Part shown: positions 58,084-62,959 of the stretch, piece after piece | Layout of the letters: each line of letters starts with the position of its first letter | Numbering within the stretch: the stretch's first letter is position 1 | Assembly: GCA_050298595.1 (NCBI GenBank) | Contig: JBNKUM010000094.1 | Location: forward strand, 128,001-192,000 | From: Gammaproteobacteria bacterium | GTDB lineage: Bacteria > Pseudomonadota > Gammaproteobacteria > GCA-001735895 | Reading direction: 5' to 3' | DNA length: 64,000 bases | Made by a program: the position numbers and the translations under genes | The notes under the pieces: generated by a model | What the model was told of the DNA's origin: nothing | Database searches by the model: none | What the model saw: only the letters and a program-made list of their open reading frames with translations

Positions 58084-58158
58084 GTAGCCCCTAAGAAAGT
58101 GCGGCAAAGGCCAGAGCCGCACAACTCTAGTTAATACTTGCTTCGAGACAGTCAAAAT

Positions 58159-58240
58159 ACCCAGGTAGCTCAGTTGGTAAAACAGAGAAGGGTTAAAATA
58201 TTTCTCACAAAATCAATTGCTTATCGGCCCCTGGGTTCAT
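58159..58240 (+). pseudogene. Degenerate tRNA-Phe copy
   Basis: Leader gcttcgagacagtcaaaat identical to that of the intact tRNA; 5' acccaggtagctcagttggta and 3' cggcccctgggt; T-arm lost. Confidence 0.7.
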
Positions 58241-58738: not shown

Positions 58739-59428
58739 ATGAAAAATGTATTAAAAAATATTTTATTTCTTGGACTGATTTACTCTGGAATTTCTAGTGC
58801 GGTTATAATTGATTTTGCTGGGGGGACAGCTTACTTATCAGATGGTACAAGTGTTTCAACAAGCGATACCATGTCTCCACTTTATTATAGTAATGTGGAT
58901 TACTATATTGAAGATGGGGTTAAATTTGACTTTGTCGGGGGGTATGGAATTGTTGGTCGCTACTATGATTCATTCAGCCATCCAGAAATAGAGAACAGTG
59001 TTATCCATGCACACTGGAATGCAGTAAAATCGATGGTTATTTCTATGGTCGATGGCTCGCTGTTTGATTTAAATTATATAGACTTAACCTCTAATACAAC
59101 TGTAGGAGGAGGGACAGCAACTGGAACTGAGCTTTCTTATATTTCTACAAATAGTGGCGATTCTGAGCTACTTCCTTCAAGTGATTGGGGTATTGACTAT
59201 ATATCTACTGGGGCAGCTGGTGATGGCATTGAACGGTTGTTTTTAGGTAATGAGTTTGATGGACTGTTGTCAGCTACTTTTACATCTGATAATGCATACT
59301 GTTTTGGTTTAGATAACTTTTATATTAATGAACCAGCACCTCCAATTCCTGAGCCAGCAATTATTTCTCTGTTTGTCCTGGGGCTGGCAGGATTAGGCTT
59401 ATCTCGTAGAAGAAAGATCATGAAGTAA
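58739..59428 (+). CDS. PEP-CTERM sorting-domain protein
   Basis: Signal peptide; IPEPAIISLFVLGLAGLGLSRRRK; low GC. Confidence 0.92.
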   Translation: MKNVLKNILFLGLIYSGISSAVIIDFAGGTAYLSDGTSVSTSDTMSPLYYSNVDYYIEDGVKFDFVGGYGIVGRYYDSFSHPEIENSVIHAHWNAVKSMVISMVDGSLFDLNYIDLTSNTTVGGGTATGTELSYISTNSGDSELLPSSDWGIDYISTGAAGDGIERLFLGNEFDGLLSATFTSDNAYCFGLDNFYINEPAPPIPEPAIISLFVLGLAGLGLSRRRKIMK

Positions 59429-59487: not shown

Positions 59488-59589
59488 TATCTTATCTAAA
59501 AATGTCCATAACCTTCAGAATCAAATGTCCAGTAAAGTGCGGATATTTTTAATGATCAGTTTTTTTATATTATGATTTTTAAAACTGAC

Positions 59590-59618
59590 TTGACTCGAGC
59601 CGCACAACTCTATTTAAT
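59590..59618 (+). promoter_or_regulatory. Sigma-70 promoter of tRNA-Phe
   Basis: TTGACT-17 bp-TTTAAT followed by GC-rich discriminator acgcgc. Confidence 0.75.
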
Positions 59619-59669
59619 ACGCGCTTTCCAAAATTCTGAATCGAACACTCGCTTCGAGACAGTCAAAAT

Positions 59670-59745
59670 GCCCAGGTAGCTCAGTCGGTAGAGCAGGGGA
59701 CTGAAAATCCCCGTGTCGGTGGTTCGATTCCGCCCCTGGGCACCA
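59670..59745 (+). tRNA. tRNA-Phe (GAA)
   Basis: GCCCAGGTAGCTCAGTCGGTAGAGCAGGGGACTGAAAATCCCCGTGTCGGTGGTTCGATTCCGCCCCTGGGCACCA; 76 nt with encoded CCA. Confidence 0.99.
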
Positions 59746-59769
59746 TTCTAAACCGTAAATCCATCACTA

Positions 59770-60593
59770 TCGAAGCCTTGTTAATATTCGTTCATCCATC
59801 TGGAATCGAACAGAATGTTTGTCGGTGGTTCGATAATTCGGGTCATCCTTGACCCTCACCCTACAGGCTCGCTATGCTCGTGCGAAATTCGTTCCAGACG
59901 AATTTGTCCGCCCCTGGGCACCATTTTATATATTTATCTCTTAATTTTCGAAGCCCTGCTATTCACTAAATACCGTGCATGGAATCGAACAGCATTTTTG
60001 TCGGTGGTTAGATTGTTTGACTCATCCCTGAGCCAAATCCTGCGGACTCGCTATCGCTCACGTTAGCCTGTTCCGGGCAGGCTAATCCGCCCCAGGGCAC
60101 CATTTATAACCTACCCCTATCATCGCGACAGAAAACAGCTCCTGCGTTTTCTGCATACATACCATCCATGGCAATAACCGAAGCGTGGCAGGAGTGATAC
60201 AGGGATGTATCGTTTACGGAACCAAGGGAAGCCATCTTATTTCGAAGCCCTGCTATTCACCAAAGACTGTGCTTGGAATCGAACAGCATTATTGTCGGTA
60301 GTTAGATTGTTTGACTCATCCATGGGCCAAATCGTTATTACACTCATCCCTGGGTTCCACCCTTCGGCTGTTCAAATTTAATCCCGATAAATTTGTCGGA
60401 CTCTCTATCGCTCACGTTAGCCAGTTCCGGACAGGCTAATCCGCCCCTAGGTACCATTTATAACCTACCCCTGTCATCGCGACAGAAAACAGCTCCTGGT
60501 TTTCTGCATACATACCATCCATGGCAATAACCCAAGCGCGGCAGGAGTGATACAGGGAAGTATCGTTTACGGAACAAAGGGAAGCCATCTTAA
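59770..60593 (+). repeat. Tandem array of three interrupted tRNA-Phe 3'-half repeats (rtT-like)
   Basis: tgtcggt(g/a)gtt(c/a)gat-[insert]-tccgcccc(t/a)(g/a)gg(c/t)acca at 59820-59923, 59999-60102 and 60293-60456; each preceded by tcgaagcc...tggaatcgaacag. Confidence 0.9.
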
Positions 60594-60707
60594 TTCTGAG
60601 GCCTCGATCTTTCCTATCATCGTGCCATTCAAATATACTTGTTCCTGGATACTCTGAAAAAACCAAAATGAATAAATAAGTGTATTTAGTAAACTGTCAC
60701 CGTAATT

Positions 60708-61205
60708 TCGCACTGGGGAAGTTGGGCTTTTCCAGTTGAAATGGCAAGAATATTCCACTAACGATGTTCGCAAACTGCGAAGCAAAGCCTCAAATCTCTC
60801 GGCCGAATTGATTGACTGGTCTGAGAAGGTAGAATCCTGGATTGAAGAGAATGGAACCTCGGCACTAGGCAAGTCTATGAGGCTCAAACAAAAGCGCCGC
60901 GAGGTGGTGAAGAGAGTACTTCTCTTCGCCATTTCGAAATCTTCTGTTCGGACTTTGGGCTACGGCGTAAAGACTATACTCCTTGCTTAGCCATGGCAGT
61001 ATGGCCCCAGTTCGTGCGTGCCCGCTTAGAAGTAGGGCCCTCCGAGCAGCCGCTGCAAGAGATTCATGCGCAGCTAGTCAATGAGTACGACGAGGTTCCA
61101 ATCATCCAACCGATGTCGGCGTCGATTCGAGTGGCTGATATAACAATACACATTCATGATCTTTGGAATCGAACTGATGGTCCCATGCCAGGGGAGCAGG
61201 TGTGA
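60708..61205 (+). pseudogene. 5'-truncated, frameshifted remnant of a possible nuclease-domain protein
   Basis: Frame reads RTGEVGLFQLKWQEY (QxK, PD-(D/E)xK-like) with no proper start; continues across a frameshift near 60990 into MAVWPQFVRAR... Confidence 0.45.
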
Positions 61206-62671: not shown

Positions 62672-62959
62672 ATGTCCAGACCTTTACGATTAGAATTCCC
62701 CGAAGCACTCTACCATCTCACCTCCAGAGGGGGTCGTCGTGAAAATATTTATGAAGACGATGAAGATAGCCTGGCTTTTCTAGAAGTGTTTTCATCTGTC
62801 ATCGAGCAGTTCAACTGGGTGTGTTATGCCTATTGCCTGATGAGCAATCATTACCATCTTCTGGTTCAGGCCCCCGATGCTCAAATAACGAGGGTCAGAT
62901 ACAAATTAAAAATATCGCGCAGAATTTTGGGGTCACGTAAGGCTGTCAATTATGATTAG
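62672..62959 (+). pseudogene. REP-associated tyrosine (Y1/HUH) transposase, N-terminal fragment
   Basis: MSRPLRLEFPEALYHLTSRG, AYCLMSNHYHLL (HUH); similarity appears to stop near 62882. Confidence 0.88.

What the first reader, a model, noticed from the sequence alone, without database searches (positions are those of the whole stretch)
59770..60593. tRNA-Phe 3'-half array, every copy split at the same T-loop base by a 72-bp hairpin element
Seen: three downstream copies of the last 32 nt of tRNA-Phe are each interrupted between ...GTT(C/A)GAT and TCCGCCCC. The inserts in copies 1 (59835-59906) and 2 (60014-60085) are both 72 bp yet differ strongly in sequence while keeping the same three-hairpin layout (CATCC-loop hairpin, central hairpins, TTCC-loop hairpin). 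Copy 1 to copy 2 spacing is 179 bp. Each copy is preceded by a leader containing GGAATCGAAC, the exact antisense of the tRNA T-arm GTTCGATTCC. Known: E. coli tyrT carries about 178-bp repeats of the tRNA 3' end that yield RtT RNA. Inference: structure is conserved over sequence, so this is either a tRNA-co-transcribed structured RNA array or the footprint of a tiny element that targets T-loops.
Basis: partly seen in the sequence, partly recalled or inferred. Interest (0 to 1): 0.72.

Follow-up and report, generated by a model that had tools for sequence, protein, structure and literature searches.

The report
Mobile hairpin inside tRNA-linked repeats
Behind this bacterium's phenylalanine tRNA gene sit three spare copies of the gene's tail, each split by a small folded DNA unit that also occurs as a clean insertion at many unrelated sites, so these repeats, built like the long-unexplained 'tRNA-linked repeats' of E. 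coli, are likely footprints of a tiny mobile element whose enzyme is still unknown.

Summary
Three tRNA-Phe 3' fragments are split at GAT^TCC by inserts of 72, 72 and 132 nt; the third holds a nested 60-nt relative. The insert is not tRNA-specific: 35 copies in this genome, most away from tRNAs, ten compared with empty paralogous sites (clean insertion before a T, at most 1 nt duplicated). Stems covary strongly (14 of 17 pairs). It was found in 74 of 149 other genomes of the class. The window misses Rfam RtT, yet E. coli RtT and lysine TLRs share its anatomy (anti-T-arm leader, T-arm half, insert, CCA end), with the insert reversed. A model of the insert hits E. coli rrB at 65 bits, and this genome's tRNA-Tyr repeat passes the RtT threshold. 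Verdict: a tRNA-linked repeat (TLR) array whose core is likely a non-autonomous micro-element moving as single-stranded DNA. No mobiliser was found, and transcription was not shown. My searches found no paper stating the mobile-core reading, but older ERIC-insertion papers could not be read. This scan reported the same family before on other genomes.

The parts
59670..59745 (+). intact tRNA-Phe(GAA), the only Phe tRNA that ARAGORN finds in the assembly
59802..59811 (+). leader 1: inverted copy of the T-arm; can pair with both flanks of the insert
59820..59834 (+). tRNA fragment 1, 5' half (variable loop to T59)
59835..59906 (+). micro-element copy 1 (72 nt; TCC-loop hairpin, short hairpin, variable hairpin, TCC-loop hairpin)
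59907..59923 (+). tRNA fragment 1, 3' half to CCA (17 of 17 identical)
59981..59990 (+). leader 2
59999..60013 (+). tRNA fragment 2, 5' half (C56 changed to A)
60014..60085 (+). micro-element copy 2 (72 nt, 59% identical to copy 1, stems kept)
60086..60102 (+). tRNA fragment 2, 3' half (16 of 17)
60119..60237 (.). tail 1: a different multi-copy palindromic repeat carrying two further micro-inserts (sister family with similar TCC/GGA loops)
60275..60284 (+). leader 3
60293..60307 (+). tRNA fragment 3, 5' half
60308..60439 (+). micro-element copy 3 (copy-2 type, 132 nt with the nested copy)
60336..60395 (+). 60-nt element of the same family nested in the second hairpin of copy 3; copy 2 is the empty form
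60440..60456 (+). tRNA fragment 3, 3' half (15 of 17)
60473..60590 (.). tail 2, duplicate of tail 1 (92%); unit 3 is a tandem duplicate of unit 2

Best explanation
This is an array of tRNA-linked repeats (TLRs) behind tRNA-Phe: each unit is a duplicated tRNA tail split by a 60-85-nt hairpin unit that is dispersed through the genome as clean insertions and is likely a non-autonomous mobile element moved as single-stranded DNA by an unidentified enzyme acting in trans. Shown: family membership, dispersal, empty/filled sites, a T after the 3' junction, covarying stems, both orientations, nesting, head-to-tail tandems, and the same anatomy in E. coli RtT, lysine and rrB repeats. Inferred, in falling confidence: (1) the two terminal TCC-loop hairpins are the ends recognised by a nuclease that cuts 5' of a T at both junctions, as HUH enzymes would; (2) single-stranded hairpin loops such as T-loops are favoured targets; (3) a hit in an essential tRNA gene survives only with a duplication that leaves one intact gene, which gives the TLR; (4) the inverted T-arm leader arises in that repair or is kept because it ties up the spare T-arm in the transcript; (5) units then expand and exchange by unequal recombination between the repeated tRNA ends. 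Read-through RNA is likely, and function as an RNA would be a secondary, lineage-specific gain.
For: 35 copies at E<0.01 in the own genome by HMM and 35 at E<=0.1 by covariance model; only the units at three tRNA genes (Phe, Leu, Tyr) are tRNA-linked. Ten filled/empty pairs give inserts of 60-78 nt; each admits a placement ending in G before a target T, 7 of 10 of them starting with T, with no duplication over 1 nt. Insertions at three different positions and in both orientations in copies of one Y1 gene family. Covariation: 94% of 492 cells paired, 14 of 17 pairs with double changes, 0 of 500 shuffles as high, slid controls 31-46%. G-T cells 7 and 3 versus A-C cells 9 and 5 in two alignments (463 and 632 cells), so no RNA-strand wobble bias. 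74 of 149 other genomes of the class have a hit. T-loop insertions at three positions (54^55 and 59^60 sense, 58^59 antisense), all before a T on the element's strand. Head-to-tail tandems with period equal to element length, and tandems of two different copies. Model R1, trained without them, hits rrB at 65.3 bits and all 10 RtT/lysine TLR inserts at 12.5-20.2 bits, always opposite to the tRNA strand; the two background hits score 8.6 and 6.1. Anti-T-arm leader: 32 of 46 Phe units beat shuffles, against 0 of 23 and 4 of 24 non-tRNA copies; the cognate T-arm scores above the non-cognate mean in 23 of 24 units.
Against: No mobiliser found: 0 hits in 41 loci around Y1 genes, no convincing pair of split ends around a gene in the own genome, no recurrent nuclease among 93 neighbouring ORFs scanned of 108 listed. 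18 of 74 element-positive genomes lack a Y1 match. The base 5' of the cut varies (T, A, C), unlike the strict C^T of E. coli TnpA-REP (PMC3333891 passages). No transposition was observed; empty and filled sites are paralogues, and several copies probably spread inside host repeats. RtT/lysine hits are weak one by one and the model's E-values are rough. The cognate T-arm is the single best match in only 12 of 24 leaders. Conservation of leader pairing from E. coli to marine taxa also fits selection on an RNA. Kin are not independent in any of these counts.
Confidence: 0.7

Rival explanations
1. The array is primarily a selected regulatory RNA: units are co-transcribed with tRNA-Phe, cut out at their CCA ends and act as small RNAs (CsrA/Hfq ligands or tRNA-processing decoys); dispersed copies are secondary.
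For: RrB, whose core is the reverse complement of this family, is transcribed, processed and binds CsrA through GGA loops in vitro (PMC8144298 passages). Leader pairing is conserved and follows the cognate tRNA, and it closes the outer stem of the RtT model. Contigs of relatives crossing a unit occur in two RNA runs (X17, X15). A Pseudoalteromonas unit scores 47.5 bits on the sRNA family BjrC1505 (threshold 50).
Against: In this window the tRNA-strand RNA has TCC loops, not GGA loops. Orientation differs between TLRs even in one genome (Phe and Leu sense, Tyr antisense). Most copies lie away from tRNAs, many inside ORFs they interrupt. No G-U excess. The RNA-run contigs give no strand and may be DNA. 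The same paper reports only modest phenotypes for RrA/B/F.
Confidence: 0.17
2. Each unit is a minimal integrative element: a roughly 180-bp att-only circle inserted by a tyrosine integrase at the 17-nt core ending in CCA, the leader, T-arm half and hairpin insert being passengers on its arm.
For: Tandem units with different spacers and inserts in same-genus genomes look modular; tRNA 3' ends are classic integrase targets (own knowledge); integrase fragments lie beside two other loci.
Against: Units are never seen at a non-cognate tRNA; each leader matches its own tRNA, so units form locally. The insert moves on its own. Unequal recombination between repeated tRNA ends explains the modularity. 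No integrase ORF lies next to the array.
Confidence: 0.08
3. A decaying local duplication without an element or function.
For: Copies 2 and 3 have substitutions in the tRNA parts, and unit 3 is a plain tandem duplicate of unit 2.
Against: Covariation, 35 dispersed copies, the same split in 40 of 63 pattern-scan loci.
Confidence: 0.03

Closest known systems
E. coli tRNA-linked repeats (TLRs), including the tyrT/tyrV RtT repeats (Rfam RF00391) and the lysT/lysV repeats
   Same: Directly behind the cognate tRNA, 1-5 units, period about 155-180, ends in the tRNA 3' end; anti-T-arm leader, T-arm 5' half and a same-family hairpin insert. This genome's tRNA-Tyr unit passes the RtT threshold.
   Different: Insert in the sense orientation at 59^60, so 17 rather than 18-19 nt of 3' identity; no RF00391 hit in the window or in 15 marine loci; full TCC-loop hairpins that the RtT/lys copies lack; nested copy. 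The TLR paper seen does not use the words mobile, insertion or duplication in its main text.
RrA/RrB/RrF small RNAs between the rRNA operon terminators (PMC8144298)
   Same: The core is this element (65.3 bits), inserted into a duplicated 5S 3' end.
   Different: Transcribed from the opposite strand of the element, giving GGA loops that bind CsrA; the window's tRNA-strand RNA would show TCC loops.
About 70-bp insertions within ERIC repeats (Sharp 1997; Cromie et al. 1997; De Gregorio et al. 2005; recalled, papers not held)
   Same: A close relative sits in a multi-copy E. coli repeat whose empty form spans 127 bp, the size given for ERIC in PMC3184786.
   Different: As I recall they were described as ERIC-internal inserts, not linked to TLRs; I could not check this. 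The name ERIC for this repeat is from recall plus size.
REP/BIME with TnpA-REP (RAYT), and IS200/IS605-derived palindromic non-autonomous elements
   Same: Hairpins, no target duplication, cut 5' of a T, tandem amplification (PMC3333891 passages).
   Different: No GTAG tag, base before the T not fixed, four hairpins, and no copy beside any of 41 Y1 loci.
SRM/NTS repeats with Ssn GIY-YIG nucleases (PMC11893778)
   Same: Small hairpin repeat dispersed across Proteobacteria; precedent for a single-strand nuclease tied to a repeat.
   Different: The SRM search motif has no match in 59700-60800; SRM-like repeats are hosts of this element, not the element.

Membership tests
tRNA-linked repeat (TLR) | lies directly downstream of a tRNA or rRNA gene | tested here: met
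   first unit ends 178 nt after tRNA-Phe
tRNA-linked repeat (TLR) | 3' end identical to the last 18-19 bp of the upstream gene | tested here: met
   17 nt (17/17, 16/17, 15/17), one to two shorter because the cut lies one base further 3'
tRNA-linked repeat (TLR) | one to five units per locus | tested here: met
   three units
tRNA-linked repeat (TLR) | co-transcribed and processed to a defined RNA (shown for RtT, RrA/B/F) | tested here: inconclusive
   only unstranded contigs of relatives in 2 of 5 RNA runs laid
RtT RNA (RF00391) | score of 45 bits or more on the Rfam model | tested here: not met
   no hit at E<=10 in 59500-60800; positive controls 46.7-137.5 bits; own tRNA-Tyr unit 46.9
RrB-type CsrA-binding sRNA | GGA in hairpin loops on the transcribed strand | tested here: not met
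   loops read TCC on the tRNA strand; GGA only on the opposite strand
MITE | terminal inverted repeats and a target-site duplication | tested here: not met
   ends are separate hairpins; no duplication over 1 nt in 10 of 10 pairs
REP/RAYT | GTAG-tagged palindrome and copies flanking a RAYT gene | tested here: not met
   no tag in alignment; 0 hits in 41 Y1 loci
REP/RAYT | cleavage at C^T | tested here: inconclusive
   T after the junction in 10 of 10 pairs, preceding base variable; chemistry not testable
IS200/IS605 non-autonomous derivative | subterminal hairpins, no target duplication | tested here: met
IS200/IS605 non-autonomous derivative | fixed 4-5-nt target and an autonomous partner with the same ends | tested here: not met
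   left flanks vary; no partner
SRM/Ssn repeat | match to the SRM motif | tested here: not met
ERIC-internal 70-bp insertions | sequence identity with the published insertion types | not testable with these tools
   papers not held

The most novel reading that the evidence does not exclude
A class-wide, gene-less 60-85-nt mobile element, moved by an unrecognised single-strand DNA enzyme that reads two TCC-loop hairpins, is the generator of all tRNA-linked repeats: it hits T-loops, a coupled repair step writes an inverted T-arm splint plus a duplicated tRNA end, and because its other strand carries CsrA-type GGA loops each insertion in that orientation seeds a ready-made CsrA-binding RNA, as in E. 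coli RrB.
Probability: 0.35. Interest if true: 0.8.

Novelty: new variant of a known kind. Interest (0 to 1): 0.52.

Why it matters
TLRs have been known since 1978 and, per PMC8144298, have no known function. Reading their core as a mobile micro-element explains their 17-19-nt end identity (it is fixed by where the element cuts the T-loop), their two orientations and their patchy spread, and turns their origin into a testable question. It would also identify one of the smallest mobile DNAs in bacteria, present in about half of the sampled genomes of the class, point to an unidentified enzyme that inserts DNA without a target duplication, and show a route by which selfish DNA becomes a CsrA-binding RNA. 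The locus itself is one more instance; the value lies in the family.

Tried and rejected
Rfam on the window: only tRNA. Rfam on 11 own-genome loci: RtT at tRNA-Tyr only, others below threshold. Pattern scan of genome contigs: of 63 loci I dropped 20 as artefacts (adjacent tRNA genes or plain duplicates) and 3 as unclassified (L050, L071, L076); 40 kept, judged by HMM score or by eye, two of them overlapping on one contig and two near-identical to units of same-genus genomes. A strict element pattern found nothing in viral contigs; blastn found nothing in plasmids and four weak hits in the phage collection. The 335-aa Y1 family as mobiliser: its intact copies have no flanking element, so it is treated as a target. 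The truncated RAYT-like ORF at 62672-62959 scores below the NF047646 cut-off and has no element beside it. Ssn/GIY-YIG: four own-genome matches, one beside sister-family hairpins, none tied to this element. RNA runs X18, X19, X20 cover only the tRNA. BjrC1505 resemblance is below threshold and partly due to the terminator; not pursued. tRNA intron rejected: inserts occur only in fragments. No protein structure or complex jobs were run, as there is no candidate protein.

Full report
Observation. tRNA-Phe(GAA) lies at 59670-59745. Its last 32 nt recur three times downstream, each split between GAT and TCC. The inserts are 72 nt (59835-59906), 72 nt (60014-60085; 43 of 73 positions identical to the first) and 132 nt (60308-60439), the last being insert 2 plus a nested 60-nt relative. 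Each unit is preceded by GGAATCGAAC, the reverse complement of the T-arm. Inserts 1 and 2 fold better than all 200 shuffles as DNA. Overlapping contigs of two DNA runs reproduce the array. Two same-genus genomes have similar arrays with other combinations of spacers and inserts. The organism is very likely a gammaproteobacterium (inference from named records with near-identical units).

The insert is a dispersed family. An iterated HMM finds 35 copies at E<0.01 in the genome; a covariance model (R1) finds 35 at E<=0.1. Besides tRNA-Phe, only tRNA-Leu(GAG) and tRNA-Tyr carry split 3' fragments, at 169 and 171 nt, the Tyr one with the insert reversed. The rest lie between genes, inside other repeats, or inside decayed copies of a 335-aa Y1 transposase gene at three positions and in both orientations. 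Fourteen copies had a paralogous empty site; I compared ten of them base by base. Inserts are 60-78 nt, each admits a placement ending in G before a target T, seven of these start with T, and no duplication over one base is seen. Some copies probably spread within their host repeat, so sites, not copies, count as events.

Structure is conserved over sequence. In 29 copies from different taxa, 94% of 492 cells pair, 14 of 17 pairs show double changes, none of 500 shuffles reaches the covariation score, and slid controls pair at 31-46%. The first and last hairpins keep TCC in the loop. G-T cells are no commoner than A-C cells, which fits a DNA hairpin or an element used in both orientations; one of the two alignments was fitted to the model and leans towards it.

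Distribution and targets. Of 63 loci from a pattern scan for a split Phe T-arm, 40 hold a family insert (marine Gammaproteobacteria such as Marinobacterium, Amphritea, Pseudoalteromonas, Alcanivorax), one reversed; 23 were dropped. R1 hits 74 of 149 other genomes of the class (one unpublished genome left out). Contexts include T-loops of Gln, Arg, Ser, Val, Leu, Gly and Glu fragments at three positions, ORFs of prophage-like and other clustered regions, other palindromic repeats, and the element itself; head-to-tail arrays have a period equal to the element length, and some tandems join two different copies. The 3' T in these model hits is partly built into the model, so the junction claim rests on the empty/filled pairs and on tRNA sites.

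It is a TLR. E. coli K-12 tyrT/tyrV and lysV/lysQ repeats read: inverted T-arm leader, T-arm 5' half, hairpin insert, T-arm 3' half to CCA; the shorter lysT-type units lack a clear leader. RF00391 hits ten such units (46.7-137.5 bits) but none of 15 marine loci nor the window; it does hit this genome's tRNA-Tyr unit at 46.9 bits, and its outer stem pairs the leader with the T-arm 3' half. R1, trained without them, hits all ten RtT/lysine inserts weakly on the strand opposite the tRNA, and the rrB repeat behind 5S rRNA at 65.3 bits. The rrB lead came from an earlier scan note and was tested here. PMC8144298 (Introduction read whole; passages) defines TLRs by 18-19 bp of 3' identity, says they have no known function, and shows RrB binding CsrA through GGA loops; those are the reverse complement of the TCC loops. 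In the window, read-through would give the TCC strand. A close relative also sits in a multi-copy E. coli repeat whose empty form is 127 bp, likely ERIC; I recall papers on 70-bp insertions in ERIC but could not read them.

The leader belongs to the TLR unit, not to the element. Upstream antisense to the uninterrupted site beats shuffles in 32 of 46 Phe units and 3 of 3 window units, against 0 of 23 and 4 of 24 non-tRNA copies. It scores higher on its own tRNA than on the mean of others in 23 of 24 units, but is the single best in only 12. It can pair with both flanks of the insert and often mismatches opposite the insertion point. Whether it is a repair scar or is selected is open.

Mechanism. 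Shown: dispersal, clean junctions, covariation, nesting, tandems, shared anatomy with TLRs. Inferred: movement as single-stranded DNA with cuts 5' of a T at both ends, by analogy with TnpA-REP, which cuts C^T in single strands and can build tandems (PMC3333891 passages); survival of tRNA hits only with a duplication; expansion by unequal recombination, as unit 3 duplicates unit 2. The enzyme was not found: no element near 41 Y1 loci, no split ends, no recurrent neighbour among 93 of 108 ORFs, and only a confounded co-occurrence with Y1 genes. I put a HUH-family enzyme at about 0.35 among possible mobilisers. Transcription of this array is not shown: two of five RNA runs hold unstranded contigs of relatives that cross a unit.

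Literature. Nine searches found no paper describing TLR or RtT cores as a mobile element. Seen as passages only: PMC11893778, PMC3733652, PMC3184786, PMC2965389, bioRxiv 2022.01.24.477521 (56) and 2024.07.17.603846 (99). Not held: Rudd 1999, Bosl and Kersten 1991, De Gregorio 2005 and 2006, Wilson and Sharp 2006. No supplements were opened. The library lacks most subscription papers, so part of this may be in print. Earlier notes of this scan describe the same family on other genomes; they are not independent evidence.

Verdict. Real, a new variant of a known kind (sense-oriented TLR array) whose core is likely an unnamed mobile micro-element. Interest 0.52: it makes the origin of TLRs testable, but the class is known, the enzyme is missing and part of the element family may already be published as ERIC insertions.

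Noticed in passing
window 58133-58185: Decayed copy of the tRNA-Phe upstream region and 5' end (89% over 53 nt), 1.5 kb before the gene, bracketing a PEP-CTERM gene (58739-59428); similar 5' copies in G010 and G002. Suggests an islet gained at the 5' side of the tRNA.
   Followed up: partly
window 60119-60237 and 60473-60590: A palindromic repeat with two nested micro-inserts of a sister family (TCC/GGA loops, other hairpin order); empty, singly and doubly filled forms occur elsewhere in the genome.
   Followed up: partly
window 62672-62959 and 60682-60710: Truncated RAYT-like Y1 ORF (PF01797; below NF047646 cut-off), and a short multi-copy motif like the ends flanking a Y1 gene in L249.
   Followed up: partly
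G000:C94:221270-224658 (outside the window): Cluster of 18 tRNA genes including a His(ATG) call, likely horizontally acquired.
   Followed up: no
G000 C23, C35, C15, C30, C85, C78, C12: Multi-copy 335-aa Y1 transposase family with short inverted end motifs; decayed copies collect the micro-element at three positions and, in C30 and C85, a further insert of about 28 nt.
   Followed up: partly
G162:C1:2951128-2975834; G175:C1:1267774-1283320: Seven and about twelve different element copies packed into a prophage-like region (portal gene) and another 16-kb region, many inside ORFs; either preferred targets or tolerated ones.
   Followed up: no
L061:1494-1634: A sense-type Phe unit scores 47.5 bits on Rfam BjrC1505 (threshold 50), with a matching last hairpin; that sRNA may contain a related hairpin.
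   Followed up: partly
window 59638-59656: The intact tRNA's own upstream region also contains GAATCGAAC within a small hairpin; relation to the leaders unknown.
   Followed up: no
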